Both the position numbers and the translations under genes were made by a program. Shown piece after piece: positions 20,382 to 64,000 of a stretch of 64,000 nt of DNA. Location of the stretch: NCBI GenBank assembly GCA_977862235.1, contig OZ374559.1, forward strand, positions 124,001-188,000, given 5' to 3'. Each line of letters opens with the position of its first letter. Within the stretch, counting starts at the first letter, position 1. The DNA is from Dudresnaya verticillata. Taxonomy: Eukaryota. A model generated the notes under the pieces. The model had not been told where the DNA came from. It was given only the letters and a program-made list of their open reading frames with translations, and did not search any database.

Positions 20382-20507
20382 AGAGAGAGGAGACCTTTAT
20401 TAAAGAACAAGAGAGAATCCCCTTAAGGGGGCTTAGGGTGCAGATCTACCATAACGAGGCGGAGGAGCAAGCTTGCGGCGGTTGACACTCACCGCGACGC
20501 ATTGAGA
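20382..20507 (-). mobile_element. 3' fragment of the same RLE LINE family as 3498-4684
   Basis: Reverse complement closely matches ~4563-4687 (end of ORF, CCCCTTAAGGGG palindrome, AATAAAGG TC tail). Confidence 0.88.
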
Positions 20508-29126: not shown

Positions 29127-29143
29127 TCAAGCAGTGGACCGAG

Positions 29144-30706: not shown

Positions 30707-31100
30707 TCTGACGGAGGCCTTGTCCCAGTGTTTGGACTGCTTGGAAACGTTCAGTACGAAACGTCCCTTTTTCCATTCTCGGTCTCCTGCCAGACGGTGA
30801 AGGCCGAAGAAGGGATCGCTCCCTGAACCACCGCCTTGTCCACGTGCTCCCTGCCGACCTCCTCGTAAATACCCGTCCTGCAGCCTTCCTCCAAGTCTGC
30901 AAATGCAAACTGGAGATCCTCTTCGGTCTGGGGAAGATTCCCGAGCTCATCGCCTTGACCAGGAATGAACGGGCGAGCAGGCAAGTCGCTCACGCCGAAC
31001 TTGATCGCTCGGTAGAGGAATTCCGAGCAACCGAGATCGCGCCATGCTTCAGATCGCTTCTGAGTCTTTCTCCAAAGCGGGCGCGGATAGCCAATGTCGA

Positions 31101-32715: not shown

Positions 32716-34604
32716 TGTAAGGAAATAATCCACGTGTAGGTGTAAGGACTCGAGCGGGGAAGCTACGCGTGATCTGTCAGGAGCGCGGCTGCATGACGGA
32801 CGGATCTGTCAGACACGCCTCGGGACGACACGTGTCCTGAGTTCCCGCGTGACGCGTACATCCGCGTCGCCGCCGCTAGGTAATTCTATACTTATTTGAT
32901 CCGTCTCAGACGACACAGTAAACCCCGGCAAGCCGGCCTTGGTCCAGACTTCCCCGTTCAGCACGCGCGTACCCTACCGCTGCCTACGGCTAAGCGTCTA
33001 CCTCCGTGCTTCCACGTCTCTACCCGTCCTTGACGTGTTCCCTTTCTGTTCTCTTTTGTTCTTCTTTTCCGCCTCAGGCGTTTACAGTCCGCCCAAGGCG
33101 AGTAAACAGCTCTACCACCCGTCGCCCACGGCGAGGCTACTCATCGCCGCAGGCGTCGCTACCCACCGAGCTCCGAACTGCTCGGCGGTGTTCCGTCATC
33201 GACGTTTGCACTACAACTGGTCTCCCGACCTAGAAGTGTGCGACGTTTCAACGAGTTACTCCGTCGTGCGACGTCCGACCTTCCGTCTCTAGACGTTCGT
33301 CGTTAATCGTCCACGACGTTCAAGCAACTCTACGACTGTATTATGGCCTCACGACCGCCGCCGTCGCGAGGCCCCAGTTCAAGAAGACCGTCATCGACGC
33401 CGGGAAGTGTTCCTGCGTCGGGGCGGTCGCTACAGCGGATGACAACGAGGTCTGGGCGCCTCGTGAGCCCCGAGATCGCATCGGCCTTCCCGACCGGTCC
33501 TGGCCACGACCACTCCCATATATCGCTCAACAGGGGCGAAGTACCTCCCCCGCCGGTACCCGTCGTTATCCGCACCACCGTTTCCAACGAATCGGCCCTC
33601 CGAACCTACCACTCGCACGTGGATTCTGCTGACACGGTACAAGCCGAACAGCGACCTGTCTAGGACGGAGCCCAAGCCGACATCGTCGAGGAACAACCGG
33701 AAGTTCCGGTTCACCGACCAGCCTTACCCGTCAACGACGACCAGGGACGCCCTGCAGGGCGCGACGTCGTAGACGAATCACCAATCCCAAGGGGCTGCTG
33801 CCCCTCACCCCACGGCAGTGCCGGATGTTCACCGGCCAGGCCGTTAACGCAACCGCGCAGCACGGGAGGTCCGCTGCAGGCGTCGACCCCCGCGCACATA
33901 CCGCCAATGGCGTCCCCAAAATCCGCCCTCGTTGGCAATCTCACGATACCTCGCGAGCGGATTCGGGAAGTATGCGTCGCTGAAGACGATAAATTACTCG
34001 CTCGATTTGCGGGAATGCTCGACGACAATGTCGGAGGTATTTTCAGCCGTCTGCAGACGTTGGAAGAAGATCGGGACGGTGCCCTTCAAGGACTCCGTTC
34101 CGACCTCGACCGTCTGATGACGAACCCCAACCATGGGGTAGATGCCCCGCAGCCAGCGGCATTGACGGTCCACTCTCAGTCGGAACTGAGTTCTCGCGAA
34201 CGCTTTCAGCGATTAGCAACCCGCTTGGAGCGACTGGAAACCGCCAAATGGCGCCAAGGGCCGCCGTCTGATGACGATAGTTCCGAGGAAGGCCGACGCA
34301 AAGATCGTAAGAAACGGCGCAAGAATCGTCTCAAGTCGCGTCATGGACGGAAGAAGAACCGTCACCGACGAGGGGACTCATCCTCATCCTCTTCGGACAT
34401 GTCTAGTGACGAGGGCTCAACCGGCTCTTCGTCAGGCGACGACGCCCACGTGACTCAGGGCAGTGCAATACGACCCCGCGGAAAGCGATACAAGGGACTG
34501 AAGGAGCTAAGCCCCTCCAATCCTGTTTTCGACCAGCTGCTATCGTACCGCACATACCGTCTCCAAGACGTAGGACAGAAGCGCTCTGGACGCGAAACCG
34601 GGAA
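32716..34604 (+). mobile_element. Ty3/gypsy element, 5' part (LTR, PBS, start of gag)
   Basis: Candidate LTR from TGTAAGG (32716 or 32741) to CTACA (33215), followed by PBS-like TGGTCTCCCGACC. Gag ORF 33907- is cut at RETG and resumes at 58564. Confidence 0.8.
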
Positions 34605-35280
34605 CTTCCCGGATTTCCGGGTTTTCAGAATCTGTGTTCCGAATAAGTCTGAAAAAAATGTTAATGGAATGACGATTTCTATATTGCGTTGGACTGGGAA
34701 GAGGGAGCTGAGAAGAATGGTGGAATCGGTTTTGGGATAGCATGCACGGTTGCGGAGTTACAGCATGCCGCATATAGGGGTGAAATGCCCCGAAACTTTC
34801 GCGAAAGTTTCGAAACTTTCGGAATTTCCGAATTAAAATTTATCCAGAACTTGCACTGCCGCCTGCTGCCCTCCCGGGCGCGCCTGGCAGCGCACCGACG
34901 CTCGTGCTTCAGCACGCTTGGCCCCGCCCGCCGCATCCCCGGCCCGCCCTGAGCTGTGTTCAAGGGCGCAGTGTCGCCCCGCACGACTGGTACTGCTTGG
35001 CCGCCAGGGTAAATCTGGAGGGTAAACCAGTCATGCGAGGCGCTCACGCACTCACGTGCTGGTACCAGTACCACCCCTTCCCGCACGTGCGCATCATTCC
35101 ACTTCGGATCCTGGACCAGTACGGCTCACCTCGCGCAGCAGCTCCACCTCCATCGCGCGTGCCACGCACCTCCTCTACCGCCATCTCGCGTGCGCCACAC
35201 CATCTCTACCGTCATCGCGCATCTCACATCAAACTGCGCATGAGGTTCGCCACGCCTCGCCCCTGCCGCCCTCCCCATCA
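34605..35280 (+). repeat. Left terminal inverted repeat
   Basis: Reverse complement of 57963-58563; the outer ~270 bp are highly similar, the inner part is diverged. Contains the perfect palindrome CGAAACTTTCGCGAAAGTTTCG at 34791-34812. Confidence 0.9.
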
Positions 35281-35299
35281 CCCCGCACCCGTAAGAACA

Positions 35300-37067
35300 G
35301 GCGACTCTTGCATAAACAACACGCCCTGCACAGCGCCCCCAGCCGCGGAGTCTCGCGCTGCGCAAACCGTCGCAGATGAGCCCAACAGCGAGGGAGACCT
35401 GTCCCCACCGCCGGGTGGCGCGTCATCAGCGGATGAGGCCCCCGAACCACAAGAAGAAGACGACGACCAGCCAGATGACGATGGCGATGGACTGCAGAGA
35501 TTGGTTTCCGATTTTGTCGCGTGGCACGACTCCATGGTCCAGGTCTGTTCAGACCTGCACGGGAAGTCCTTAGAAGAGCTGCAGAGTGACTTCTATGCTG
35601 CCACTGAATCCAAGCCCGCGTCATGTACCCTCTTTGCCAACGATGCTCGCTCGTGCGAACCCCTCCCGCGCGACCTCGCAGACTACGCCATCATTTCCAC
35701 CCTTAAAGTGTAGAATTCCCTGGCAATGCAGAACGCTGCATCTTGGCTGTTTAACATGATGGACCGCACTGGTGCTGGCTACGTCATACGGGATGATTAT
35801 GGGCGCTTCGCCGCGTTTTTCTGACCAGTTGCGGATGCCGCGGTTGCAGGGCTTGTATTTGATGAGCTTGTGCCATAGCTGACCGAGCGTGCCGCAGAAG
35901 AAGAGGCGTTAGCAGCCTTGCAGGACTCCAAACAGAACGGCCCTCGCTTTGAGAGGGCTGCGTAACTGGAACGTGCGAGAAGTTAACGAGGAAGCGCAGC
36001 CAAGCCGTTGCAGAGGGCTTACGTCGACTTCGACCTTTTGCATGCATGGTCAGTGCAAATGGTGATGCTGCATCACTTGTATGTCAAGATGCGGGCTGTG
36101 ACATCGACAGCTTTCCCGTTGCTACAATGGTGACTTCTCGGTCAGCAGCCTGTCAGGCGACGGGGCTCCCCTGCACGACATTTATCCGCCAGCTGTTGCG
36201 TTGCGGTATGCGATCTGGTGCCCATTCTTTCTCGCTGTTCAAGACAACTGCCACTAACAAGAAGATGACTGGCTCAACTTACAACAGCGGCTGGGTATCG
36301 ATGCGGGTGAAAGTCTGGTCAATTCGCAAGATGCGTTGGATCTCAGTGCTTTGTTTCATACATTGGGAAAGCTGTACCTTAGCCAGAGGTATCATATTTT
36401 ATTTCCATCTGTTGGCAGGAATCGTTAGTTTGTGAGGTCTGCGGCTATCGTAGCTGTGTCCACGACAGACAGAGATATCTTTCATGATGCGTGACTGCTT
36501 GTTTTCAATACGTCTACTGTCTGAGAGGGAGGTAGCCGTTCATGGGTTATCTGAAGGAAGAGAACGCGGAAGCTGGCTCAACATATGGAAATGGTCGGCA
36601 AGGGCGTAAAGCAGATACCGGGCAAGACCCAACCCTATCGCAACATGTGTGTAAGCTTATGCGGCAATTCACATCGAGGCAGAAGCACCTTTTGTGCTGC
36701 TGTGTCGAAGTCAGAGAGATGTATAATTGCACCATTTGGGTTCATCTTACGGGGTAAATCGTAGCAGCCCACAAGCTTCACCTTCATTTGGGCTCTGTTG
36801 TCTTGCGTCAACTAATGCCCTCGTTACATCCACAGCAAACGCAAGAGAATGGCAAAGCCGGGTTGCAGTCGGGGTGCTAGGATGTGCAGGCCTCATTTTT
36901 CTTGCAATTCTATCGCAGACGCTGTTTTGTTGTTCATATTCTTCATGTTCTTTAAGCACTTCCTGCCCCCTACCAGTCGGCAATTGAAATATTGGCAGGC
37001 TTTCCATCCCTTCGTGGATAGAATCGCGACTGAAGACAATCGAGAAAGGAGTTCATTAAAGACATAA
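35300..37067 (+). pseudogene. Possible captured, decayed host gene with EF-hand-like motif and hydrophobic C-terminus
   Basis: Reading through the stop at 35713 gives WLFNMMDRTGAGYVIRDDY; hydrophobic segments lie near 36860-36960; many stops. Confidence 0.35.
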
Positions 37068-37968
37068 GGTTGACTTCCCATTCTGTCTCAGTAAATTTAC
37101 TCAACCCCGTTTTCTACTCTATCTATTCATTGCTATCACTTGAAATTCTCTCTACACGATTAAATCCTCTTCTTCTTCGCTGCTTAAGGGGTTCGTGCAG
37201 CTCCACAGTTCCGCGGACACCGAACGGACAGCTCTGGCGACAGCTGTTCTAACCGCCGTCGCTTCCCGCCTCAAGTGGCGGTAGCAGTGCATGAGGAATT
37301 CGAATTCCTCCATGCACTCGCGAGCCTCCCTTAAACAGCGCTTGACGATGTCGTGCTGGGCGCGAACATCGATGCGAAGTAGTACCACTTCTTCGTAGGC
37401 TTGTCGGATTGAATTGCGGTTCATGGTCGATGTTGGCCGTGTACGGGGAGGGAGGTCGACTTCCATCTTTAATACTGTGGACTGTGGACTGCCGCAGACA
37501 CAGCCGGTCGCCTGGTGCAGTGGGAACCAGTACCTGAGCAGGATTTGGGGGCGTCAAGTCAGTAGATAAGTGCTAACAGTAATGGAATGCCTTTGCTGCT
37601 CATCTACACGAGACGTCCAAGTCCTGCCATTCGCTTTGCCCTTCGCTAAAGGCAATGTTTCATTGCGCCAATGCCTCGGTCTGTGCACCCTGCACCAGAA
37701 TATGCATGCGTTGGACGTCCTCGTGAATCGGGCATGCTCGTATGTCACTGTGATGTCGTCAAAGTTCATTTCTGGGGATGCAGATACCTCATACTAGGTA
37801 AAAGTTGGACAATGTAGTGGAAGGGGATTTCTGGGAGCCTTTAATATCTGGGAAGAGGAAAAGAGCCCCTGATATCTCAAAACAAGGAAACGACAGACTA
37901 CCCAATCATTACTACCTTTTTTCTTGGTGGTAGTAGTAGTACTGCTGCCAATACCTTCACGGAGCGCC

Positions 37969-49009: not shown

Positions 49010-49773
49010 GTTGTTTTTGGATTTTTTGGCGATTTTCTGTTGTTTTTGGGATTTTCAGGAAACTTTTTGAAGTTTGTAGAATGTTCTGGAACGTTTTGGT
49101 GAAATACGTGGAAGACGTGTACACGTCAGAAACGTGTCAGTAAGCTCGGAAATGAGCTCAGGAGGTGGCCCTGAGGGTGAAACGTGTACACGATGTACAC
49201 GTGTTGAAATCGGGTTGGTCGCCTCCACGGAAGCAGATTGGGATAAGATCCAATTCGAATTGGATCAGACAGGCTGGCTCCACCGTCGTCGCCTATACGT
49301 GGCAAATTCAGCGAGTGGAGCCGTGACAAGCGCCAGTAACCGCTACTTAGGGCCTGTCGGGGACGAACTTCTTCCTCTTCTAACTCCGGAACCCGTCGTC
49401 CAATGCGAACGATCAGGCACTCCACGGAGACCTTGGGGCCTTCTCTTCTCAGATCCGGCGCCTCCGACGGGTTTGGGCGCAGGATCTCTTGACCTTGGCG
49501 TAGTCTTGAACTATGTGCAACCCAATCCAACCGCTGAGCATCCATATTATTGTTCCAGTGACGGAAAAGCTACTGGACTCAGGGATTGGGCGCGTGTGCG
49601 CTTGGTGCTGATCGTGGATCTTAAGGATGCGTTACGCAGGCTTCATTTCGCCGACTACAGGGTCGTCTTTTTTGCGACGGGCGGCGGTGCCGCTCCGCCA
49701 TTTTGGGACTGCCCCGGTCATGCCTGCGAGTTCTCGTGCCTGGGGACGACCTGGTTCTGGTCGAATTATTACC

Positions 49774-50066
49774 ATGGCAGCGGTTGATCTGAAGTTTATC
49801 AGGGAGAACCTGCCCGCGGTGGAACAGAACATTACTGATCGGGCCGTCGCGTAGTTGAGTTGTATGAGAAGTATGTTGCGCTCGGCCAAGAGGCTGGTGA
49901 GCTGCGACGTCGACGGAGTGACAACGCTGCGCTGATGAAGAAGGCAGGCAAAATGCAACCGGACGAGCGAGCTGCTTGCATAGCGGAGGGGAAGGAGCTT
50001 AAGGCCGATGTTGCACGCTTGGAGGAAGACCTGGCAGCGGTTGAGGCCGACCTGCAGGCAGAGGCC
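49774..50066 (+). pseudogene. Seryl-tRNA synthetase N-terminal coiled-coil fragment
   Basis: VDLKFIRENL...LRRRRSDNA...IAEGKELKADVARLEEDL; catalytic domain absent; internal stop at 49852-49854. Confidence 0.75.
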
Positions 50067-51900
50067 GTCACAATGTACCAGGACACCGACAATCCGCCAG
50101 AGTCTTTGCCCTTGATTCCGTCGCATCCCGAGTATGGGCACGGTCGTTGCTGGATTGATATCTCGAAGGCTATTATGGCATCCACCGAGCTCATCTATAT
50201 TGCAGGTTGGGCCGTGTGGCCGGAGCTTGTTATGGTCCGAACTGACTTTCCCGGTGACGAGTGGAAAGGTCTTACGCTTGGCGAGATGCTCAAACAAAAG
50301 GCTGAAGAAGGCGTTAAGGTCCTTGTTATGGTATGGGACGAACTGGCGAGCGGCCGCTTTTCAAAGGGCATGATGGACACCCACGACGAGGAGGTGGTTG
50401 CCTAGTTTAAGAAGTCCAAGGTCAAGGCCATCAAGGTGGGACGACAAAACGTAGAGGACGGCCCGCTTGCCGATCTCAACGACAGTCTTCTTTTCACGCA
50501 TCATCAGAAGACAGTCATTGTTACTAAGCGCGACCCGGACAGCGGTAAGAACCGCGTCGAAGCCTGGCTGGGCGGACTTGACCTGACCGACGGGCGCTAT
50601 GACAATCATAAACACAGCTTGTTCAGAACTCTGGACGGTCTCCATGCGCCTCCAGACTTCTGGCAGGCTTGTGCCATTGGTGTGGACGCAGATTCCGGCC
50701 CAAGGGAGCCGTGGCATGATATCCACAGTCACGTGAACGGCACGGCTGCTTGGGATGTGATGACCAATTTTGAGGGTCGGTGGTCTCGCCAGGCTCCAGA
50801 CAGTGCCAAGTCTGCACTGCACCCTCACCCTCCGGAAGACTTTTTGCAGCCCGCTGATGAGGATGGCATTCGAGACGGGGACTGGAATGTGCAGATCTTG
50901 CTCAGCATTAACGAGGCCTCGACCGCCTTGAATGCTGATCGTCCGGGACTCACCGTCCGAAGAAATGCTGGAATTGACCAGAGTATTCATCACGGATACG
51001 TTCATCAGATCAGAGCCGCAAAGCATTTCATTTACATTGAGAATCAATACTTCTTGGGATCAAGCCACTTGTGGACCTCTGGGCAGCGGGGTGGGTTCGC
51101 ACCCCACCTCATTGCAATTGAGATTGCAGAGAAGATTTGTGCAAAGATTCGAGCGAATGAACGTTTTGCTGTCTATGTCAACGTCCCCTTGTATTCGGAG
51201 GGAGCTCCGGACTCGGGTCCAGTACAGGAAATTCTTTCGCATCAACGCAAAACGCTCGAGTTGATCACCTCTCGGATTGCGAAGACAACGGCGGAGACTG
51301 GGAGCGAGACCACAATTGGCGATTGATTCAACACGTTCTGCCTTGTCAATAGGGAATCCGAAGAGGGTGGAAAAGGGAACGGTGGCTCTTCAGCTATAGA
51401 AAAAACGCTTTCGACAACTCGGTGCTCTATGATATACATTCATAGCAAGTTTGCTATCTTTGATGATACTGTGGCTATTACTGGGTCTGCGAATATTAAC
51501 TCTCGCTCAATGGATGGATCACGTGATACAGAAATAGCCTTGATGGGGTGGCAACCAGAGCATGTTGCGACTGGATCTCTGGGTTACAGCGACGTCGGCA
51601 TGCAGGATCCAAGTGTACCCCAAGGTGATGTGGCTGCCTTCCGGAAAAGTGTGTGGACGGAGCATTTTGCAGAATATGTGCCGGAAACGGAAGATCCCAG
51701 TTCTTTGGAATGCGTGAAGCGCGTGAGACAGCTTGCAGGGCGGAACTAGAATCACTTTGCAGACGATGGTGGATTGGCAGCAGATATGCCTCACGGCCAC
51801 CTTGCTTTGTATCCGCATGAGTTTGACGAGACCACTGGAGAAGTGTCGTCGAGGAGAACTTCAATGCCTGACTTTCCCAACGCGTTGGTCAAGGGTAAAG
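50067..51900 (+). pseudogene. PLD: Plant-type phospholipase D catalytic region, 5'-truncated, with stops
   Basis: IYIAGW, THDEE, THHQK, GGLDLTDGRYD, PREPWHDIH, IYIENQYF, IYIHSK...DD, GSANIN.RSMDGSRDTEIA; stops at 50403, 51324 and 51747. Confidence 0.92.
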
Positions 51901-51929
51901 CCACGCCCGGCATCGCCCCTGCCAACCCG

Positions 51930-52200
51930 GATACGCCCCCGGCCGGCGTGCTCGCGTACAACGCATCCGATGCCGTCGTCCTCCTTGACATGCGCCCGTC
52001 CCCCGCACCCACCCTCACACTTCATACCCGGTCCCCACCATCCGCGCAGCGGCTTCGTTCTACACCCGAGGCGCTTAAGCTGCTTATCGGCTGCGCCAAT
52101 GACGAGGTCTATCCCGACGTCACGCCCCCCCCGCCTGCGACTGCGCCACCCGATGCGGCGGGAAAGAAGCATCGGTCTGTGTCGGCAGTGGCTACGTTGG
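51930..52200 (+). pseudogene. Second WD40-like fragment (possibly WDR20-like N-terminal part)
   Basis: GC-rich segment encoding VLAYNASDAVVLLD...STPEALKLLIGCANDEVY, joined to the end of the PLD fragment. Confidence 0.4.
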
Positions 52201-53652
52201 CGAGTGTCGCGGACGCGGTGTGGTAGAGAGGCCCAGCGGAAAGGCAACCTAGATGGCGCGGGAAACGGCTCGGGTCGTGACGTGCACTCATAAACCTTTA
52301 CTAATGGCGGCTACCGTGCCATGGAGGTTCCGGATCTAGGATTCGGAGCGGGAGGATCGTGGGCTGGATTGGGCCTCCACAGATGTCATCACCGCTTGTA
52401 GGGCAAACATAGCCTGCGATAAGGCCAATGTTATACTGCGATGGACCCGATGGAAGACACTGCCAACCATGCGCAGAGCCGCTCGCTACAGACGGGCAAC
52501 CAGCTGACTTAGCTCATCCTGAGCGCTCCTAAGTTGCTGGAATTCTTCTTCAAGCTCAACGAGTTGCGCTTCGACATCTTGGAGACTTATATCCTCCGTT
52601 TGCATTAGGCTTGTTCCGTGACTTCAGACTCCTCGTTTCTGCGGGCAAGGTGGCGCTGCAAAGCCGCGATATGTACCCTTGCTTCTGTAAGTTTCTCCTG
52701 GATGAAGATAAGCAGACGGTTGATTTGACACACAACTGGCCACCCTAGTCGCTGAAGCTCACGCGACAAGTACGATACCGTCACCCGAATGGTCCTGATC
52801 TCCCCCTGTAGTGTAGCTATTCTCTCCTGAGCGGAATGCAGCCTCCCTTCTCTTGTCTCTTGATACATGTTGTGCATAAGGTAGAGTCTGGAACTTTTGT
52901 CTCACGGCGAACTTCAAATTTGCAGACTGGTACTTGATGCATACTATGCTATTAGTTTGGTGCATGTTCGCAAACTGGTGAAAAGCCAGCTGTAGCCCAC
53001 GGCAGCTCATTGGATTGACTTGTCCTTCTTCTCCAAGAATAATCACGGGATATCGAGACGTAAACATCAACGCAGCCGGCAGCCGGGGTCTTACTTCTCA
53101 GCCCCTCTCGATGCTATTTCTTATCCTTGACGCCCATCAATACTACGCGCTTGTGGTCGCATGGCGGAATAGAGCAGTCTGCAGGGCGTACCCTTGCGAT
53201 ACCGAGTACTGCTTCTTGATTGACGGGGACTCGAGATTCGCGACTTGTCCGTTCTGATTGGTAACATGGCACGCTCGTCTCTCGAATCAGACTGTTTTGT
53301 TCGCACTGGCGCTATAGTGTATGGCGGAATGGAGTGGTGCATACAGAGCGAGAGGGAAGCCCTTCCAATACCAGTCGTTTTAGCTGGGATCCGTAGCAAC
53401 TGTGGGCATGCGCAAGCCTATCATGCAGAACGCCCCACCGCCTCTGGAACAGTATTATATCGGTGTCGTTTAAGAAGCGCCCTCGGCCCTCCCGAGTATT
53501 TCAGCTCTTCAGAACAAGTAGCGCACAGCTATCGCGCCCTAGCCGGAACATCGATTTTGCTCCTTCACTTCGCCCGCCCTGAGTGCAAGGAGCATCTTGC
53601 ACTAGTGAGTTGCAAAAAGCTCAGACTCCCCTGCCGAAAGGGGTAGTAGGAC

Positions 53653-56600
53653 ATGGCCCAAGCCTCATCTGGGCAGGTTTCGAAAGCAGCAAACGTTCCA
53701 GTTCAGAACGACGACGACTTCGGCGATGAGCTGCTTCCCGGAACAAAGCCCGGCGCACGAGTCATGCTCACTCTCAACGGGGAACACGTTGCTACAGCAA
53801 CCCTGCTACGACCCCATGATTTTAGGGAGGGTTCCGTTGATCCCAGTGGGCGATTCAGCACATACCTGCACGGGCGCAACCTTGGGCCTCAACAACGTGA
53901 TGGAGAAGTATGGGTTGTAGTTCACCTCGTGCGATGCCTCCACAACTGCAATTCCTACGAAAACCCGTTCCAGTACAAAACAGGCAGTACGCCTTGTCCG
54001 GAGACACTGAGTCGAATGCAGACTGGAAAACACGCCTGGGACCTATTCCAGATTGAGGATCTCGTAACCATCTACAATACAGAGCGCAGAAAAAGCTCAG
54101 GTGCAACTGTCCCCGGAGTGGAAAAACGAGCGGTGGCTGACGCTAACCCACCAACACCCCCTCTGCTCAGGGTTCGCAAACCCGATCCTCACCCAAAACA
54201 GCAGCATGGTGCGGAAGAAATGGCAGCGGTGAACAGTCCTTCAACACCACCGCCAGAGAAAGGCAATGAAGAGGAAGAAGTCACAAAACGTCTGCAATAC
54301 ACACCTGTACGCCGGCCACCTATGCGTGAACGACCCCAGAAACCACCCAAGAATAACGTTCCGGACGCCTTACCAGTCTCTTTGGCCCCAGTATCTCTTG
54401 AACCCACGACTACACCCGTGGAAGAGAGAGGTCCTTGTGTAGGCGTGAATGACAGAGTCGATGCAGATCTGAAACAAGACTCTGCTAGGGCTGTCAGATC
54501 TATTCCTTCTCGAGGAAAAGGAGCAAGCGACGAAGAGAACTGTATCACGCCCCAGCCATGCCCTGCACACAATGTCAGACGTACGCCTGAAAGCAGTTCG
54601 GGCTTTAGTAGCGGCGCACCTGAACCCGACCCTGATGCTACCCCGGCGTTGGCCGCGAGTACTAACACAGAGGGTGACGTGGAACGAACGCCGGGTGCTG
54701 ATGGCTCGGAAATAGAGCACGGTGAGGAGCAATCAGATGCTGCGACGTTGGATCTGGTGAGCGACGCAGAGGTGGAAGGTGGAAGTGATGGAATATTAGA
54801 AGACGAAGATACTGGAAGCGACCAGGAAATTGAGGACCTCACCAAGGACGCTTATTACGTGCCAAGTGCGACAATTTCACGAAGACGCACGGCAGCATAT
54901 GAGGCTGAACGTGTCCCGCAAACGCCCGGAGTTGCTGAGGATGAGACCAATGGCTCCCGAAAGAGAAGGTACCGCTTCTACGCAAGACAAAGAAAGAAGT
55001 TGAGGGTTGGTGATACTGCATTGCAAAAGCGTCGCAATGCTGCTCTGGAAAAGCTTGATGAAGAAGACTGGGGCTCCAAGGAGTGCTGCATGCGGAAGCA
55101 ATGCTTCAAGAGGGTATCGATTGTGTACATGAAAGCCGAGATTCGCAAACTGTTGCGTATGGACGCCCATGATCGACGAAACTATTTGCACGGGTTGTTG
55201 CAGCGACCGGGATGGAATTATTACTTCGACGGTAAGCCAGTATGCTACACGTTCCTGGAGACGGCGTTTGGGTTTTCCAGGGACCTACAATATTCAGTCA
55301 AACAGTTTGGTGGAAGCCGGCCTATGGAGGGTGAGAATGCCGTGCCGTATCAGCCTCCGAGTGAGGGCAGGGATAAGATACTAAGTTACCTCAACCGGCT
55401 TGCTGAGATAACAGCAAGCTGCATGCCCGACGCAGATGAGAAGCATCTGCCGTACTTTGATAAGGCTGCGGTCTACGAGAACTTCCTTCTGGACCAGGAG
55501 AGGCTGTATCCTGGAAAAGACCCACCTCGACTAAACTACTTCTACCACGTCTGGAAGCAGCACCGCAGTGACATAAAAGTCCGCAAAATCCAACGCTTCA
55601 CAAAGTGTTCGGAGTGTGAAGAATTTCGTGCAAGGCTTGCCAGGGCCGGTACAAACCGCAGACTCGCGGAGCCGTTCCTGCTCCATAGAAAGGAGCACTA
55701 CAAGCTGGTTACAAAGGAGAGGGTGTACTACAGGGAGAATACGGAAAAAGCTACTTTGTATCCCTCCGAGTACTGTTCACTGATAATTGATGGCGCGGAC
55801 CAGAAAGCGTTCGGAGTACCAAAGTTCGTGGTCAGCACGAAGGCTACGCGTGGACATGCCATAGCAACCAAAGTTGTGGGCGCATTGGAACACGGTTCAT
55901 TGAAGCACCTATCCCTGTTCGTCATGACAGGAGAGTTTGAGACCGGCGCAAATCACATGATCGAAACAGTCCATCGCCTTCTCACAGTCAAGCATAACCA
56001 TGGCACTCTGCAGCCTACGCTGTTACTGCAGCTAGACAACTGCACCCGGGAGAACAAAAATAAGTACATGCTTTCTTACCTGGAGTGCTTAGTGGCGTGG
56101 GGTGTTCTGCATGAAGTGCAGGTTTCCTTTCTCCCAATCGGCCACACCCATTCCGACATCGACCAGGCCTTCAGTTGCACAAGCAAGAGGGTCCGATCAA
56201 AAGACATGCCGACCATGTCTTGCCTTCTCCGCGAACTAAGCATGTCATACACGCCTCGTCCATCGGTGGCAAGGTTGCTGCAGGTAGCCAACTTTTCCGG
56301 GCTGTGTGACAAGTATGCGTGTATTGGCAAGACTGAAGCATTCTCACACTACAGATTCTTTCGAATTACTCGCCAACGTGGAAAGGGCATGGGCAGAAAA
56401 GCGAGATTCCGCACGCGATGCCTCGTCAAGATTCAGTGTGAAGATGAGTGGAAACCTCTTGTAACAGAAGCACGTGGCAACTCTCTCAAACAGGAAGGCT
56501 TCATACTATTCACCCCTGCCCTCGTTAAGACGCCAGAGACCATAGCGCGATGCCCACCTGATATGAAGGAGGTCAATGATCGCATACGTTGCACTGAAGT

Positions 56601-57102
56601 CCGAGCGCTCAAGGCGTCGCAGATCACCGAACTGGAAAATCTTAGGGATCACGTCTATAGAGATCGAAACGAACCATTTCACTGGGACTTGGGTCACGCC
56701 CCGGAGACGAATGGGAAGCTGCGAAGGGACAGTAGACAGCATAGAGACCCCGAAATGCTTTCGGAGATACCAGAAGAGGAGCAACTACCCGCACAGGACC
56801 TAACCTACAGCCACAACAGAATGGTGGCCGTCAATTATGTTCAGGCAACCGAGCAATGTCCTTTTTACGTGGCAAAAGTGATGGAAGTTGTGAAGGGGGA
56901 CGATGGAAAGGTTTCGAAATTGTTGTTGCGGTGGTATGAAGCCAAGCACACCGGTAATGTTTTCAGTGCAGCTTACAAACCTTCGTTCTACAAAACCAGG
57001 CGCGGGGTCGCAAAGGAATGGGAAGAAGACGTCACCGTCGATTGCGTACTTGTGGAGTTTGAGTCGCTCACTCGAAATAACCGTCTGCCGGTTGCAGTAT
57101 AG
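53653..57102 (+). CDS. Transposase of the giant element (RNase H-like DDD-type core) with accessory N- and C-terminal domains
   Basis: CC-x3-C and FTKCSEC Cys motifs; LIIDGADQ, QLDNCTRENKN, FLPIGHTHSDIDQAFS; C-terminal PFYVAKV...LLRWY; located next to the right TIR. Confidence 0.85.
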   Translation: MAQASSGQVSKAANVPVQNDDDFGDELLPGTKPGARVMLTLNGEHVATATLLRPHDFREGSVDPSGRFSTYLHGRNLGPQQRDGEVWVVVHLVRCLHNCNSYENPFQYKTGSTPCPETLSRMQTGKHAWDLFQIEDLVTIYNTERRKSSGATVPGVEKRAVADANPPTPPLLRVRKPDPHPKQQHGAEEMAAVNSPSTPPPEKGNEEEEVTKRLQYTPVRRPPMRERPQKPPKNNVPDALPVSLAPVSLEPTTTPVEERGPCVGVNDRVDADLKQDSARAVRSIPSRGKGASDEENCITPQPCPAHNVRRTPESSSGFSSGAPEPDPDATPALAASTNTEGDVERTPGADGSEIEHGEEQSDAATLDLVSDAEVEGGSDGILEDEDTGSDQEIEDLTKDAYYVPSATISRRRTAAYEAERVPQTPGVAEDETNGSRKRRYRFYARQRKKLRVGDTALQKRRNAALEKLDEEDWGSKECCMRKQCFKRVSIVYMKAEIRKLLRMDAHDRRNYLHGLLQRPGWNYYFDGKPVCYTFLETAFGFSRDLQYSVKQFGGSRPMEGENAVPYQPPSEGRDKILSYLNRLAEITASCMPDADEKHLPYFDKAAVYENFLLDQERLYPGKDPPRLNYFYHVWKQHRSDIKVRKIQRFTKCSECEEFRARLARAGTNRRLAEPFLLHRKEHYKLVTKERVYYRENTEKATLYPSEYCSLIIDGADQKAFGVPKFVVSTKATRGHAIATKVVGALEHGSLKHLSLFVMTGEFETGANHMIETVHRLLTVKHNHGTLQPTLLLQLDNCTRENKNKYMLSYLECLVAWGVLHEVQVSFLPIGHTHSDIDQAFSCTSKRVRSKDMPTMSCLLRELSMSYTPRPSVARLLQVANFSGLCDKYACIGKTEAFSHYRFFRITRQRGKGMGRKARFRTRCLVKIQCEDEWKPLVTEARGNSLKQEGFILFTPALVKTPETIARCPPDMKEVNDRIRCTEVRALKASQITELENLRDHVYRDRNEPFHWDLGHAPETNGKLRRDSRQHRDPEMLSEIPEEEQLPAQDLTYSHNRMVAVNYVQATEQCPFYVAKVMEVVKGDDGKVSKLLLRWYEAKHTGNVFSAAYKPSFYKTRRGVAKEWEEDVTVDCVLVEFESLTRNNRLPVAV

Positions 57103-57299
57103 AAGAAGTTGCGCGAATGCCTTCACAAACAGTAGCGCCCGCAGCCATCTGTAGAGCAAGGAATAGATGTAAGTTTACTAAGTCAGAATGGGAAGTATAG
57201 AGTGAATGTGATTAGGGTAATGTGTTTGAGAGCTGCTATGAAACTGATTTGTTTTCCTGTTCGTCCAGGTCTACCACTTTATATACTTGAGCAGTAGTG

Positions 57300-57820
57300 C
57301 TAGGACGCGAAATTGGTACGGTGCGAGTGCTGTGCGTTCCTTGCCTTGCAATGTAAACCTTGCAATGTAAATAGCGGGGTTTGTTTGGTCAGCGTTTCAA
57401 AAGCGTTTGAGGCAATGCACACCGGAAGCCATTTGAGGTTAGAGCGGTTGATGTCGTGGTCCAGTACGTGATGAAGTTTCAGCACTTCAGCAGTTGGCGT
57501 GGACGGAAATGAAAACACGCGAAATTGTTGTGCAAGTGATTGTTATTTGCCTTCCCATGGCAATACGAGGACAATGATAACACGCGAAATTGTTGTTGTG
57601 CGAGTGATTCTTATTTGCCTTGCAATGGCAATACGGGGGTAATGACAACTCGCGAAATTGTTTTCGTGCGAGTGGATTGCGTTGTTTGGCTTGCAATGGC
57701 AATAGCGGGGGCTGTTTGCGCAGCGATGTAGGAGCGATTGACGCAAGGCGCACCGGCAGCCATGCGCAGGTAGAGCGGTTGGTGTCACTCTGCAGTACCT
57801 GATGCAGTTTCAGCACTTGA
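57300..57820. repeat. Subterminal degenerate direct repeats
   Basis: CGCGAAATTG-containing units of ~65-70 bp in tandem at ~57515-57710, plus a duplicated block (~57345-57487 vs ~57675-57818). Confidence 0.75.
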
Positions 57821-57962
57821 GCAGGACCTGCTCAGTTTCCCCCCAGTCGCACAACACTTATCGCCGCGGCGGGGCATGTCGTAGACGTGAAGTCTACAAC
57901 TTCACGCGCACTTTGACATGCCCTGCGCGGTGCGGTAGAGTTGGTGCGCGAGGTGCGCGGCT

Positions 57963-58563
57963 TGATGGGGAGGGCGGCAGGGGCGGGTGTAGACAGCGGG
58001 GTGTGGTGAGCTTGCAGTCTGATATGGCAAGCGAGATGGCGGTAGAGGTGGTGCGGCACAGGCGCCGCACTGGACCCGGAGTGCAATGATGGCCACGAGA
58101 CGGAGGGGTGATACTGGTGAGACAGGGTAAATCTGGGCCAAGCAGTACTAGTCGTGCGGGGCGACACTGCGCCCTTGGTCCCAGCCCAGGCCAGGCCGGG
58201 GGGTGAGGCGAGCGGGGCCAGACATGCCGGAGCACGGGCGCAGGCGCCTGTGCGCGCACGGGCGCAGGCGCCCGTGCGCGCCCAGGCGCCCCCCGAAGGG
58301 CAGCAGGGGGCAGCGCAATTTCCGGCTAAATTTTAATCCAGAAATTCCGAAACTTTCCAAACTTTCGCGAAAGTTTCGGGACATTTCACCCCTATATGCG
58401 GCATGCTGTAACTCCGCAACCGTGCATGCTATCCCAAAACCGATTCCACCATTCTTCTCAGCTCCCTCTTCCCAGTCCAACGCGATATAGAAATCGTCAT
58501 TCCATGACCATTTTTTCAGACTGATTCGCGACACAGATTCTGAAAACCCGGAAATCTGTGTTG
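57963..58563 (-). repeat. Right terminal inverted repeat
   Basis: Reverse complement of 34605-35280; includes a local 24-bp tandem duplication near 58232-58290. Confidence 0.9.
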
Positions 58564-61500
58564 AAGGTCAAAGACCACATCAAGCGACTCGAGTTAACGA
58601 TGAAGGACGCCGCCTTCAACGGCAGCGACCCCGTCATGGTTCTCGAATTTTTAACGCGGTTCGCGGATGAAGCGGACACGCTAGAGATGAGCGAAGCACA
58701 AGCGTTCGTCGCGCTGCCGTACTTCTTAAGGGGCACGGCAGCTGCGCAATTCCACTCCGTCAAATCGACGTCCTCTCGCCACCGCGGCGGCGTCTCATCG
58801 TACCCGGAGGCGGTGCACTACCTCCTCCGCACGTACGCCACGCCTTCGGCGATTCGAGACGCTGTACTCGCCCTGCGGTCGACTAGTCAGAAGCAGGGCG
58901 AAGACGAAACGACTTACGGCATGAGACTCGCCGGCGCATGTATTCGTTGCGGTAACGTTTATCCCGAATAGGAAAAGATGACACTATACATCGATGGGTT
59001 AGACCCGAAGATCAGGTCCTTAGTGGCCCGCTTCCGCGAAGAAACGCCGAGGGCGGAGTTATCTTTCGGACGTTTGGTCCACTTCGCGCAAGACGAAGGC
59101 GACGCGCAACGCGCAAGACGCGGCAGGGCCGGCTCAACGTCAGTAAGACGGGATATAATGGCCCCGGGCCAAGCCGCTCGCGCATTGCGCCCCGCCATTG
59201 GCGACAACCAAACGGTTCTACGTCAACAGACGAGAGGCACGAAGCCTGCCGCACGCGCTATGATAGCGGAGTCTTCCGTTCAGTTCCGTGACGTCACCCA
59301 TCATGCGGACGATATGGAAACACACGCCGATGGCGATCTCTACTTGGCCGATGAACAAGCGTCAGTGCCGACGTTAGCGTTACCAACGGACAGCTACGTC
59401 GAAGACGAGGACACAGGGGCAATGGATCCTACACTCGCCTTTGGGCGTTCCGATGTGCCTGCGCCACGCGTCCCGTACTCGGAGTATGCCCCCCACGTCC
59501 ATCGGGCGAGGCCTGGTTGGCAAGACAGGGGTCCGTCCCGTCAAGACGCTCGCAGACAGTTGATCTGTCATCAGTGTTATGCCCGCGGCCACATCGCACC
59601 GGACTGTTTCCTCCGCATGAGCGAGTTTTGAAAGCGATCGCATACTACGAAGGCCTAACAGACGCCGAGAAGGCAGGGTCCCCGCTGATGCGTACACTCG
59701 GTACAAAGAACGCGCCGCGCACGAAGCAGCACGCCGTGCAGCACGACCGCCGTCGCCAAGGGGCGGACCTATGCCGCATGCAGCAAAACGTCATCCGACG
59801 ATGATCAATCGCTACACAGCGCCGTTACAACCGCCGCAGGCGAAAAACTAATGAGGGTACCAACTCCTGACACTGGGGTGTCGCACCAAGCAGAGAGGCT
59901 TCCGCCTTGGGTGCTGACACGGAAGGAGGACCCGAACGTAGTTAACAAATACGCCGATAGGCGGGTAGATTCGTCACAGACGTCCTTGAAGCGCCCCTGG
60001 TGTAGGTACCAGCCCCCACAAGCCCGGGGACAGTTGTTCGTAATGGCCAAAAGGAACTACAAAGTATACGCCGATCTCGGCGTAACTGTAGGTACCTTGG
60101 CACGTAAACGCACTGTCCTCGTCACGGGGGCTGGTCCGAATTTCATCCATATTGACGATATTCCGCTAGAAGCGCGATCAAGGATCGTATCCAAGAGTCT
60201 CCCCGTCATATCAGACGCTAACAACAAGGCGATTCAGACCAGGGGCACTATCGACTTAGTCGTACGTCTCGGACGAAGGGTTGTCAAGTTGGAGTTGATC
60301 GTTTTCTGAGCGACTCGCTGCGCCGGTTATACTCGGTTGCAACTTTTGCGACCGCTTTGTCGAAGCGATCTACCCGCGAAGTCGCGAGATTGAGTTAGAC
60401 GACGGGACCCGTGTCCCTATAACGCGCCGCCCGCTGCGCCGGCCCCCGTCGTACCCCCCGTTACCAACGGAACAAGAGTACGGCGCGGCCGGAGGACGAA
60501 CGTCGCCCAAGATACGCGTTGCGGAACGAACGATCATCCCGTCACAGGCGCAAAAGTGGATCTCGGTAACGACCGAGCGAGCAGGGGTCATTAACATCCA
60601 ACCGTTTGGGACGTTATATGATCGACAAGCTTTGGCCGTTACTAACGGATTCGCTCAAGTAGAGCCGCTGAGAGTGTTCCAGATTCTCGTCGCAAACTTC
60701 TCACCGCGTCCGCAAGCGCTCGTCAAAGGGCAAGTCGTCGCTACCGCGTTGCCACATCCCACAGCAGTGTTCCCCAGTCACATAAGTCTGGCCGATGTCC
60801 TAGGTATCACCGAGGAGCAGGCAGCAGAGGAAGAGGCGAATCAAGATTTCCGTTTTCAAACGAATGATGGAGTAACGGCACATCCGGATGCATTCGCTAA
60901 GTCGATCGAGGCAACTGTAGCGAAACCTCCGTCAGTGGACGAGTTGGACCTGAGTCATCTCTCAGCCGAACATCAAGGACGGCTGAAGAAGATGCCGCGC
61001 AGGTACTCATCGATGTGGGACGGTTCATTAGGAGAAATCGCAACCACCGAGCACTATATTGACTTGCTCCCCGGCTCCAGGCCGATTTCATCCCCGCCTT
61101 ACCGCGCTGGCCCAAAGCAAGGGCAACTTGCTCAAGCGGAGGTGGATCGCATGTTGCGTTAGGGGGTTATCGCACCTTCACAATCGCCATGGGCGTCGCC
61201 GGTCGTCTTTGCTCCCAAGAAGGACGGTACACGCCGCTTCTGCGTTGACTACCGTCGCTTAAACGCAGTAACGGTACGAGATACGTATCCCCTCCCGCGA
61301 ATCGACGAATGTATTGACAGCCTAGGGGAAGCGAACGTCTTCACCACCCTAGCCTGCAATAGTGGTTACTGGCAGGTGCCCATCAACCCGCGAGATCGCG
61401 ACAAGACGGCGTTCACGTGCCATACCGGATTGTTCCGCTACAAGCGTATGCCCTTCAGATTTACGAACGCACCGGCCACGTTTCAACGGACCCTCGATAT

Positions 61501-64000
61501 CCTGCTTGCTGGTTATAAGTGGCGCTCATGCCTCGTCTACCTTGACGATGTGATCATCTTCTCGAACGATATTGACAGTCACTTCCGTCACGTTGACGAG
61601 ATCCTTTCGACCTTGCATCGGGCCGGGGTGACATTGAAGTTAACCAAGTGCGACTTCTTCACCCCGACCGTCAACTATCTCGGCCATGTGATACGTCCGG
61701 GACGATTGGACGTAGACCGTACGGTCACAGCCGCGTTACGCGAAGCCAAGCATCCGCGGGACCAGAAAGAATTACGGAGCCTTCTCGGATTATGCAACGT
61801 CTATAGACGGTTTGTATTGCGATACGCGCATGTCGCCGCTCCCCTCAACAGTTTGTTAAGGAAAGAGCAAGACTTCCGGTTACAACCGTTCACCGAGGAG
61901 CAAGCTCGCGCATTCAGTACGCTTGAAGCGGTGACTCACCCGCCCATCCTGGCGTTGCCACAACAACGACTACCGTACTCCGTCGATTGTGACGCGAGCG
62001 AGTACCAAGTTGGCTGCGCACTCTTTCAAACGCAGCCTGATGGCGAACGGAAGCCGCGTGGCTTCTGGTCACGCTCGTTAACCGCTCCGGAGCGCAACTA
62101 CTCGGTATCCGAAAAGGAATGCCTAGCAGTAGTCTGGTCGATCACGACGTTGAGACCGTACCTTCAGATGGAGTCCTTCGTAGTCCATACGGACCATTCG
62201 TCATTGAGGTGGCTCATGGAAATCAGCGACCCCTCGGGACGGTTAATGAGATGGCGCCTTCGCCTCTCTGAGTTCGACTTCGTCGTGAAGTATAAAAAGG
62301 GGTACCTGAACACTCAGGCAGATGCCCTCTCACGTCTACAGACGAACGGCGAAACTGTCGAACCAATCGACGATGATATCCCGTGTTACCACGGAAGTTG
62401 CGTCAAAGACGAGGATCACCCGTCAGAGGACGGCTACGCTCACGCAGAAAGCGATACGTCAAACGCCAAGGGCGAAGTCGGTTTCTCCGAACAAGACTTC
62501 GAGGAGTTCGACCAGATGTTGATTACCAACGCGCCACCGGCGGATGAAGTGCTCCTCCGTCAATTGACGCATGAAGAGTTGGTGCATGCTCAGGGCAGTG
62601 ACCAGTACTGTTCCAAGATCCGGAAACGTCTAGACGACGGAGACAACCTTCCGTTTGCAACGGATGAACAGGGACTATTGGTTCGGACCGTCGGGGCCCG
62701 ACCTCAAGTCGTTGTACCATCCGCGTTACGCGTTCGATTGCTCCATCTCCGGCATCATGCCAAATTAGCAGGACATCCCGGAGGGCGGAAGCTGTACCAT
62801 ACGCTTTGACGCGAGTATTATTGGCCGTCTATGTCGGTGGACTGTTACGAGACCGTCCGCAATTGCGTTACTTGCGCGAAGAACCGGGTCCTGATGCGAA
62901 AGAACGTGAAGGAGATGAAAATGTTCCCAGCAACCGAGCCTCTCGAGTTTGTGTCCATCGATATACTCGGGGAGCTCATACGCACTAAGCGGGGGAATAA
63001 GTTCCTACTCGTCATCGTGGACCGCTTCTCAAAGCTGGTCCGGACGGTTCCCTTACGTAAGATTACGGCATTGAAAATCGCTAAGGCGTTTGTTCGACAC
63101 TGGGTGTTCGTGTATGGCCCATCCAAGAAGCTGCTGTCCGACAACGGGCCGCAATTTGTAGCCAAGTTGTTTCAGGACGTCTGCCGCATCTTAGGGGTGG
63201 AGAATCTCTTCACCACTACATACCATCCGCAGTGTAACGGCCAAGTGGAACGATTCAATCGAAACATCCTCGCCTCCCTGCGTCACTACGTAGCAGACCA
63301 CCCCAGCGACTGGGATCTGTTCACCGATGCCTTGACGTTCGCGTACAATACGAAACTGCACTCGTCTACCCACCTCGCTCCATTCGAACTGGTGTTATCT
63401 AAGACCCCGCGGCCATTGTCGCTGGAAGCAGAGCCGTCGCTTGAAAGCTCGCCCACTGCCGGACAGTACTACACCAAATGGTGAACCTGGCTGTCCGCGT
63501 TGATGGGAACCGCTAACGCGTCACTCGCGAAAACGCAGGAGCGTTACAAACGGAACTTCGATACTCGTCTGAGTAAATCGAAGGAGAATATCGCTGTGGG
63601 CGACTTCGCATTCGTGCGGAAGGAATACTTCGCCCGCGGCGGGAGCACCGATCGCTCAGAGCGCAAGCACAAGCTCGCGCCTGTGGCGGATGGACCGTAT
63701 CGAGTAACTCACGTCGACGACGGGACATTCACCGTCGAAAAGGGACGTGGAGAACGCGAACGTTTATCCCGGGACCGCATGGTATGGGCGCCAACCCCAC
63801 CCGGGCACGCAGCCCCCGCAACCATGCACCCACCGGGACCACCTCACGTACCGGGGCCCTGACCCCACGTCAACCGGCGAAGGAGCAGGAACCCCAGACA
63901 CGCCACAGGCGGACCCGGCAGGAGGCACAGGGACACCGCGAAGCACGGACGACGCGCAGGAGCGAATGAATGCAACTCCATTAACTCGAAGGTTAGCAGA
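58564..64000 (+). mobile_element. Ty3/gypsy element, 3' part (rest of gag, protease, RT, RNase H, integrase), degenerate; 3' LTR not in the window
   Basis: CHQCYARGHIAPDC, VLVTGAGPNF, YLDD, DASEY, TDHSSL, ADALSR, HPGG/CVTC, SDNGPQF, NGQVERFN, GPY; several stops. Confidence 0.95.

What the first reader, a model, noticed from the sequence alone, without database searches (positions are those of the whole stretch)
34603..58565. 24-kb cargo-carrying DNA transposon with exactly definable ends and a 2-bp TSD
Seen: termini CTTCCCGGATTTCCGGG and (reverse complement) CAACACAGATTTCCGGG, ~600-680-bp TIRs and an AA duplication; removing the element restores the gypsy gag frame (RETGKVKDHIK). So the element moved as one unit (~19.5 kb without the nested LINE, which could have arrived later). 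The outermost bases of the TIRs are mismatched. Inference: a giant element whose 2-bp TSD and C...G ends suggest the CACTA/Mirage/Chapaev group, while the transposase motifs look Sola-like, so it may be a poorly classified lineage.
Basis: partly seen in the sequence, partly recalled or inferred. Interest (0 to 1): 0.85.

Follow-up and report, generated by a model that had tools for sequence, protein, structure and literature searches.

The report
Giant Sola-like transposon carrying DNA methyltransferase
A 24-kb jumping DNA element sits inside a retrotransposon gene and carries a Sola-like transposase plus a broken copy of a predicted DNA-methylating enzyme that accompanies this transposase family in other genomes too and likely marks the element's own DNA.

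Summary
The element is real. Long inverted ends enclose about 24 kb inside a gypsy gag gene whose two halves are in exact register with 14 of 14 uninterrupted relatives. The transposase is a compact DDD RNase-H enzyme (DUF7869, Sola-like layout, BAH-like tail) without CACTA/Plavaka motifs. It lies next to this transposase in 4 distant metagenome loci and, by an indirect contig-length match, in 7 more. The two proteins share a ~100-residue domain of no known family, and palindromes lie between the genes. Giant red-algal transposons with N6-methylase and ParB accessory genes are published (Plavaka, Mutator, Zisupton), but I found no report of the Sola-like carrier or of the ParB-methylase fusion. 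New variant of a known kind; methylation activity is untested.

The parts
33664..34604 (+). Host gypsy gag, 5' part, up to the insertion
   Evidence: Aligns to 14 of 14 intact gag relatives up to the junction
34605..34612 (.). Fold-back junction: 8 bases that are an inverted copy of the target and replace the original left end
   Evidence: Exact reverse complement of 34598-34604 plus one G
34612..35002 (+). Left terminal inverted repeat (well-conserved part; weak similarity on to about 35270), with internal palindromes at 34791-34821
37969..40052 (-). Two reading frames of unknown kind (37969-38877, 39336-40052)
   Evidence: No Pfam match above cut-off; no hit in 80 loci
40545..43476 (+). ParB/Srx-like domain + helical region + beta-class N6/N4 DNA methyltransferase + shared C-terminal domain; broken by two frameshifts (near 40930 and 42660); motif IV reads DTPY where intact relatives have DPPY
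   Evidence: N6_N4_Mtase E 2e-8; intact relatives P0121, P0122 cover all three pieces; model of P0122 matches CcrM Z 24.3 and PadC ParB Z 9.5
44035..44160 (.). Pair of 21-bp palindromes (44067-44087, 44140-44160), the first inside a larger hairpin; candidate ParB loading (parS-like) sites, inferred
   Evidence: 2 matches, 0 of 100 shuffles reach 2 (the pattern was taken from the first copy); hairpin
44540..44620 (+). Single WD40-repeat fragment
   Evidence: E 9e-4, below Pfam cut-off
44853..49054 (-). Nested LINE, ORF1 47912-49054 and ORF2 44853-48005 both open; ends not defined
   Evidence: APE and RT domains; no TSD found
49790..50070 (+). Captured N-terminal fragment of a seryl-tRNA synthetase
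   Evidence: Seryl_tRNA_N E 3e-8
50070..51900 (+). Captured plant-type phospholipase D pseudogene (three in-frame stops, no introns seen)
   Evidence: PLDc; best solved relative PLD alpha 1, E 2e-62; stops seen
53650..57102 (+). Open 1150-codon transposase: shared N-terminal domain, Cys cluster, helix-turn-helix region, DUF7869 RNase-H core (D714, D796, D836/D838), BAH-like C-terminal domain
   Evidence: DUF7869 E 1e-45; invariant residues in 79 sequences; folds; shared domain E 2e-13
57346..57824 (.). Subterminal direct and tandem repeats (68-bp unit, about 3 copies)
58136..58562 (-). Right terminal inverted repeat; last base 58562 (4-bp reading) or 58563 (2- or 3-bp reading)
58563..58566 (+).
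58564..63862 (+). Host gypsy, rest of gag and pol (RT, RNase H, integrase), itself interrupted by stops

Best explanation
This is a 24-kb terminal-inverted-repeat DNA transposon inserted in a gypsy gag gene, encoding a compact DDD transposase of the DUF7869 (likely Sola) type and a ParB-like + N6/N4 DNA-methyltransferase partner gene that is linked to this transposase in other genomes and likely methylates the element's own DNA. Shown: the ends, the insertion site, the two genes, their domain content by profile and predicted fold, their linkage elsewhere, the shared domain, and that this copy's methyltransferase gene and its PLD, SerRS and WD40 cargo are broken. Inferred: the transposase cuts at the two ends and pastes with a 4-bp duplication (my odds 4 bp 0.55, 2 bp 0.3, 3 bp 0.15); the ParB-like domain would load at the palindromes beside its gene and bring the methyltransferase along the element, writing N6-methyladenine (or N4-methylcytosine) as a self mark that keeps the element expressed or licenses its ends; the domain shared by both proteins would tie them to the same site or mark; the left end was later or at insertion overwritten by fold-back repair. 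Odds: one element moved by this transposase 0.88; methyltransferase gene a conserved family part 0.9; self-methylation as its job about 0.5.
For: Ends and site. Transposase: (Mos1 Z 8.2, rmsd 5.1, 233 aligned; intasome Z 8.4; BAH domains Z about 7). Methyltransferase: (CcrM Z 24.3, rmsd 2.9, 228 aligned; PadC Z 9.5; Pnob8 ParB Z 8.9); 132 representatives at E<1e-30. Direct linkage: 4 of the 15 loci with at least 2.5 kb of flank, out of 90 fetched, hold a ParB and/or N6/N4-methyltransferase gene beside the transposase (L004, L007, L011, L013). Indirect linkage: of 23 methyltransferase proteins looked up, 8 have a contig of the same source and length as one of 86 close transposases and in 7 both genes fit; 7 of the 9 contigs of 7 kb or more match; null mean 0.15, never above 3 in 100,000. 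Identities of the 7 pairs correlate (rho 0.70, 38 of 5040 permutations). Linked members are spread through the clade. Shared domain found in 10 transposases and about 30 methyltransferase proteins. Palindrome pairs between the two genes in the window, L004 and L007, one in L013. Sola described as DDD with 4-bp TSDs and TIRs up to 1124 bp (PMC10741241 passage).
Against: No second copy of this element, no empty DNA site and no genome were available, so mobility as a unit and TSD length rest on one insertion. Only 15 of 50 long methyltransferase relatives keep DPP(Y/F), and 17 of 50 keep the ParB DGxHR motif, so many may not be catalytic. 11 of the 15 loci with long flanks show no methyltransferase, including close-clade L002 (about 5 kb each side) and L086, L089 (7.5-10 kb each side). 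One contig-length match (4334) is impossible, so single matches can be chance. The linkage in the close clade is inferred from lengths, not read from DNA. Transposase fold scores are in the range that common arrangements reach, Foldseek gave no hit at E<=0.001. No Sola reference profile could be run. Palindromes differ in sequence between the window and L004/L007, and none was found in L011. No relative showed ends with a readable TSD.
Confidence: 0.6

Rival explanations
1. The partner protein works mainly as a DNA clamp or bridge: the ParB-like domain loads at the internal palindromes and helps bring the two distant ends together or tethers the element, and methylation is dispensable.
For: 35 of 50 long relatives have lost DPP(Y/F) while the overall gene is kept; ParB fold; palindromes; domain shared with the transposase.
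Against: The ParB DGxHR motif is itself kept in only 17 of 50; the SAM-binding motif is well kept and the most distant loci keep DPPF/DPPW and add SET or OTU chromatin enzymes, which points to chromatin modification.
Confidence: 0.22
2. The methyltransferase gene is a selfish or neutral passenger that hops between transposon superfamilies, with no role for this element.
For: Related kinds of accessory genes move among Plavaka, Mutator, Zisupton and Fanzor elements in red algae (Petroll et al. section 8); the window's copy is frameshifted while the transposase is open; 11 of 15 long loci lack it.
Against: Pairs at 27-42% identity remain open and their distances track the transposase; both proteins carry the same extra domain.
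Confidence: 0.1
3. A CACTA/Plavaka-type element with a true 2-bp duplication; the DUF7869 gene is itself nested or captured.
For: Right end can be read as ...TG-3', and CMCT elements mostly have CA..TG ends and 2-5-bp TSDs; giant EnSpm/Plavaka elements are known in red algae.
Against: No Plavaka or EnSpm transposase match in 39 + 85 frames scanned; termini differ from PlavakaA (TGT) and PlavakaB (CATCA); no inner TIR pair around the DUF7869 gene; the methyltransferase shares a domain with the DUF7869 protein.
Confidence: 0.05
4. Not one mobile unit: two separate insertions or a local rearrangement put related ends 24 kb apart.
For: TIRs differ at 23 of 290 columns and the left end is altered; the interior is a patchwork.
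Against: The gag halves are in exact register on the two sides, which a single insertion explains directly.
Confidence: 0.03

Closest known systems
Giant red-algal Plavaka elements with PAG1-3 accessory genes (Petroll et al., bioRxiv 10.1101/2025.02.11.637652; section 8 and passages read, supplements closed)
   Same: 17-19-kb TIR elements; an N6-adenine methylase gene and a ParB-domain gene as accessories; inverted repeats next to the ParB gene; accessory genes also on Mutator, Zisupton and Fanzor elements.
   Different: Here the transposase is DUF7869/Sola-like, not EnSpm; ParB is fused to the methyltransferase in one gene instead of to a 2OG oxygenase; the close clade has no SET domain but a domain shared with the transposase. 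'Sola' occurs 0 times in that paper's main text; its Supplemental Table 6 could not be read and may list such families. Sequence homology to PAG2/PAG3 was not tested.
Sola superfamily (Bao et al. 2009, not held; described via PMC10741241 and PMC3627910 passages)
   Same: DDD triad without insertion domain; long TIRs allowed; 4-bp TSD fits the junction; Sola2 elements are known to carry an extra gene (Fanzor).
   Different: 24 kb against 2-9 kb typical (some over 15 kb); motifs differ from the Sola2 alignment seen (DFAENY, SDG..QYKN, ATSHGKS against DGADQ, DNC.RENKN, GHTH.DIDQ); the 4-bp copy is G-rich, not AT-rich; methyltransferase partner not described. Sola1 likeness is recalled, not tested.
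16-20-kb En/Spm families of Chondrus crispus with 4-5 ORFs (PMC6431247 passage)
   Same: Size, several ORFs.
   Different: Different transposase superfamily.
TET/JBP-carrying fungal DNA transposons (Kojima 2025, PMC12730594) and VANDAL anti-silencing elements (as cited)
   Same: A DNA-modifying accessory enzyme carried by a transposon, proposed to counter silencing.
   Different: Those erase 5mC; this one is predicted to write an amino-methyl mark.
Beta-class amino-methyltransferases CcrM, M.BceJIV, M1.HpyAVI, rotifer N4CMT
   Same: Fold and motif order.
   Different: About 17-22% identity; fused to ParB-like and extra domains; not among the eukaryotic group-1 clades described in PMC4738411 section 8, although clade 6 there also derives from ParB-terminase loci.

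Membership tests
Sola superfamily | DDD catalytic triad in an RNase-H core | tested here: met
   D714, D796, D836, D838 invariant in 79 sequences; RNase-H fold; which of D836/D838 is catalytic was not resolved
Sola superfamily | 4-bp TSD | tested here: inconclusive
   GAAG fits only if the left copy lost one base in fold-back repair; 2 and 3 bp also fit; relatives gave no readable TSD
Sola superfamily | Sequence convergence with Sola1/2/3 transposases (profile or PSI-BLAST) | not testable with these tools
   No Sola reference set held; papers not held; only a by-eye look at a Sola2 alignment
Sola superfamily | TIRs of 11-1124 bp | tested here: met
   About 420 nt well conserved; range
Sola2 subgroup | Sola2 motifs and AT-rich 4-bp TSD | tested here: not met
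   Motif strings differ; candidate TSD GAAG is not AT-rich
CMCT (CACTA/EnSpm, Mirage, Chapaev, Plavaka) | C(2)C and H(3-4)H motifs between second D and last E | tested here: not met
   About 40 residues, no C-x2-C, ending in D
CMCT (CACTA/EnSpm, Mirage, Chapaev, Plavaka) | CA..TG termini and 2-5-bp TSD | tested here: inconclusive
   Right end may read TG; left end overwritten
Plavaka with PAG cassette | Plavaka transposase; TGT or CATCA termini | tested here: not met
Plavaka with PAG cassette | Homology of accessory genes to PAG1-3 | not testable with these tools
   PAG sequences not available; supplements closed
Beta-class N6/N4 DNA methyltransferase | Permuted fold, motif IV (D/N/S)PP(Y/F/W) before motif I | tested here: met
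   For intact relatives P0121, P0122; the window copy reads DTPY and is frameshifted; 15 of 50 relatives keep the motif
Beta-class N6/N4 DNA methyltransferase | Methyl transfer to DNA, and which base | not testable with these tools
   Needs assay
ParB/Srx nucleotide-binding clamp | ParB/Srx fold with DGxHR-type motif | tested here: met
   PadC Z 9.5, rmsd 2.7, 97 aligned; motif in window and in 17 of 50 relatives
ParB/Srx nucleotide-binding clamp | Loading at a palindromic parS site, CTP use | not testable with these tools
   Palindromes present; binding untested

The most novel reading that the evidence does not exclude
A widespread, undescribed lineage of Sola-like eukaryotic transposons carries a bacterial-style ParB-parS-methyltransferase module: a clamp loaded at an internal palindrome pair spreads an adenine-methyl self mark over its own element, while the transposase reads chromatin through a BAH-like domain, letting 20-kb-plus elements move as units; the inverted left junction would be a flank-hairpin footprint, a cutting chemistry not expected for such a compact transposase.
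Probability: 0.3. Interest if true: 0.85.

Novelty: new variant of a known kind. Interest (0 to 1): 0.62.

Why it matters
It extends the recently described theme of giant algal transposons with epigenetic accessory enzymes to another transposase superfamily and a new architecture (ParB fused to an N6/N4 methyltransferase, plus a domain shared with the transposase). If active, it is a transposon-encoded writer of 6mA or 4mC in eukaryotes, which bears on the open question of where non-5mC DNA marks in algae and protists come from, and it is directly testable with long-read modification calls and one purified enzyme. It also gives DUF7869 a function as a transposase core, and warns that a TSD read from one junction can misplace an element in the classification.

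Tried and rejected
No genome is held, so TIRs could not be searched genome-wide; an exact 26-base TIR pattern found 0 matches in the metagenome collection. Sequencing runs were not available, so read support, copy number and whether the two methyltransferase frameshifts are assembly errors stay open. TIR/TSD search around the transposase in 90 loci gave a few short inverted pairs (L047, L070, L079, L082) but no readable TSD. LINE TSD search found none. The shared ~100-residue domain matched no Pfam family above cut-off in 21 proteins; a likeness to plant CACTA accessory domains is recalled only and was not supported there; no fold match was listed for it, but it was not folded alone. A complex prediction of the two copies of the shared domain gave no verdict. 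PDB sequence search with the transposase profile gave only low-complexity noise. Viral contigs: 1 weak locus; prokaryote genomes: 9 loci, of which the two long ones examined have split, intron-like genes and eukaryote-type neighbours, read as contamination; phages match only the methyltransferase core at about 25%, so no donor was identified. The second inverted pair (4567-4694 / 20376-20504) was rejected as a TIR pair: both are the 3' end of a LINE. The tree is the quick version, 57 of 133 rows, used only for the clade and the spread of linked members. Earlier scan notes: nothing. The atlas look-up for the methyltransferase did not complete, so its taxa are unknown.
Full report
Observation. 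The window holds an inverted pair with arms at 34612-35002 and 58136-58556 (422 nt, 83%; outer 290 columns 266 identical), alignable weakly to about 700 nt. It interrupts a gypsy gag. I searched with the right half of gag, obtained 14 longer relatives, and aligned each half separately: in 14 of 14 the left half ends and the right half begins at adjacent residues (10 directly, 4 after extending by at most 5 residues). No genome, reads or second copy were available.

The ends. The mismatch has a structure: 34605-34612 is the exact reverse complement of 34598-34604 plus one G, and 58563-58566 read GAAG, the longest stretch that repeats target bases. So the left end was overwritten by an inverted copy of the target. 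A 2-bp reading (element ends 58563) and a 4-bp reading (element ends 58562, left copy lost its last G) both replace 8 bases by 8; a 3-bp reading replaces 9 by 8. The 4-bp reading needs fewer coincidences (my estimate about 4 to 1) and equals the value given for Sola (PMC10741241, passage). A lost apex base with an inverted copy of the flank is what opened flank hairpins leave at hAT-type excision sites (recalled, no call); template switching during repair is the alternative. One junction cannot decide this.

The transposase. ORF 53650-57102 is open for 1150 codons and matches DUF7869 (E 1e-45). 140 relatives were found, 86 of them in a close group (35-55% identity) separated from the rest by a jump from 1e-89 to 1e-53; in a quick tree of 57 of 133 cores that group has full support. 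D714, D796, D836 and D838 are invariant in 79 sequences and there is no room or motif for the CMCT insertion. The model (pLDDT 71.5) aligns best to retroviral integrases and Mos1/Metnase (Z 8.2-8.4) and, at residues 1047-1150, to BAH domains (Z about 7); these scores are modest and Foldseek had no hit at E<=0.001. Atlas neighbours are eukaryotic DUF7869 clusters. The layout resembles the Sola2 alignment in a supplement of PMC3627910 (part 1 of 2 seen) but the motif strings differ; a Sola1 assignment is recalled, not tested. No other transposase was found in 39 + 85 frames.

The partner gene. Three frames at 40545-43476 are pieces of one gene: intact relatives P0121 and P0122 cover all three. 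P0122 found 132 representatives at E<1e-30. Its model (pLDDT 80.1) has a ParB/Srx domain (PadC Z 9.5, Pnob8 ParB Z 8.9) and a beta-class amino-methyltransferase (CcrM Z 24.3; rotifer N4CMT Z 19.7). The fold does not tell N6-adenine from N4-cytosine; DPPY favours adenine (established motif knowledge, recalled). Motif IV is intact in 15 of 50 long relatives and the ParB motif in 17 of 50. The window copy has two frameshifts and DTPY.

Linkage. Direct: of 90 loci fetched with the transposase, 15 have at least 2.5 kb of flank; 4 of these (L004, L007, L011, L013; about 30% identical transposases) carry a ParB and/or N6/N4-methyltransferase gene next to it, with SET or OTU additions in three; 11 do not, among them L002 of the close clade. 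Indirect: I looked up contig lengths for 23 methyltransferase proteins (the top ranks). Eight equal, in the same source, the contig length of one of the 86 close transposases; 7 can hold both genes, one cannot; 7 of 9 contigs of 7 kb or more match; jittered lengths give 0.15 matches on average and never more than 3 in 100,000. Pairwise identities of the 7 pairs correlate (rho 0.70, 38 of 5040). A profile built from methyltransferase C-termini finds the same ~100-residue domain at the N-terminus of 10 transposases, including the window's (E 2e-13); it has no Pfam match. Between the two genes lie palindrome pairs in the window, L004 and L007, and one in L013; none was seen in L011.

Other contents. 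A LINE with two open frames (44853-49054, ends undefined), a WD40 scrap, a SerRS N-terminus and an intronless plant-type PLD pseudogene, two unknown frames, and subterminal repeats. Whether these are family cargo or private to this copy cannot be told. The host was not determined by any search; intron-poor genes, the Sel1-ROC-TIR gene and the element mix suggest a florideophyte red alga (recalled likeness).

Mechanism. Shown: anatomy, domain content, linkage. Inferred: cut-and-paste by the DDD enzyme; loading of the ParB-like domain at the internal palindromes; methylation of the element's own DNA as a self mark; coupling of the two proteins through the shared domain; chromatin reading by the BAH-like tail. 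The main rival is a non-catalytic clamp or bridging role, favoured by the frequent loss of DPPY.

Comparison with the literature. Petroll et al. (bioRxiv 10.1101/2025.02.11.637652; abstract, section 8 and passages read; supplements closed, reference 46 not identifiable in the held text) describe 17-19-kb red-algal Plavaka elements with an N6-methylase+SET gene and a ParB+2OG gene beside inverted repeats, mobile among several TE families. Arkhipova and Yushenova (PMC6431247, passages) cite 16-20-kb EnSpm families in Chondrus. Kojima (PMC12730594, abstract and sections 3.1, 3.2) covers TET/JBP-carrying transposons. Iyer et al. (PMC4738411, passages and section 8) list eukaryotic adenine methyltransferase clades without this architecture. 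PMC4455052, PMC5751038, PMC10294476, PMC3985635 and bioRxiv 2021.09.26.461848 were seen as passages only and gave no Sola motif; one of two supplement files of PMC3985635 could not be searched. Searches found no description of a Sola-type or DUF7869 element with a methyltransferase, but Repbase and the Petroll supplement, where it could be listed, were not seen.

Verdict. Real element; classification corrected from CACTA-like to Sola-like; TSD unresolved, 4 bp favoured; the noteworthy feature is a conserved transposase + ParB-methyltransferase module. New variant of a known kind, interest 0.62.

Noticed in passing
window 2747-9675 +: Sel1-repeat, ROC GTPase and TIR-domain gene (immune-receptor-like) split by a LINE piece at about 3560-4694, followed by a second, partial TIR-domain copy at 8491-9675 (69% DNA identity over 1 kb).
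   Followed up: partly
window 4567-4694 and 20376-20504: Two opposite copies of the same LINE 3' end, 94% alike; mimics a 16-kb TIR element but is not one.
   Followed up: yes
window 15519-20327: Young copia element, LTRs 99% identical over 274 nt, coding region frameshifted.
   Followed up: no
window 27776-32137 -: DIRS-like element with RT and a recombinase-like frame between 255-nt direct repeats at 97%; the recombinase call is by eye.
   Followed up: no
window 21045-25799 -: Decayed second gypsy element.
   Followed up: no
window 49080-49787 +: 235-codon frame between the LINE and the SerRS fragment with no Pfam match; probably another captured piece.
   Followed up: no
L007:2360-5746, L013:4513-8790, L011:708-4283: Distant versions add chromatin enzymes to the ParB/methyltransferase gene: SET in L007 and L013, OTU protease in L011.
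   Followed up: partly
L004:5034-5329, L007:5873-6119: Both have two copies of a palindrome with the same outer hexamers between the methyltransferase and transposase genes, although the loci are otherwise distant.
   Followed up: partly
L086, L089: Long contigs filed in bacterial MAGs carry split DUF7869 genes and eukaryote-type repeats; likely eukaryotic contamination of those bins.
   Followed up: partly
window 34605-34648 and 58520-58563: The outermost 10 bases of the intact right end are complementary to a stretch 13 bases further in, so each end could form a terminal hairpin; the stem starts at 58562, slight support for that base as the true end.
   Followed up: partly
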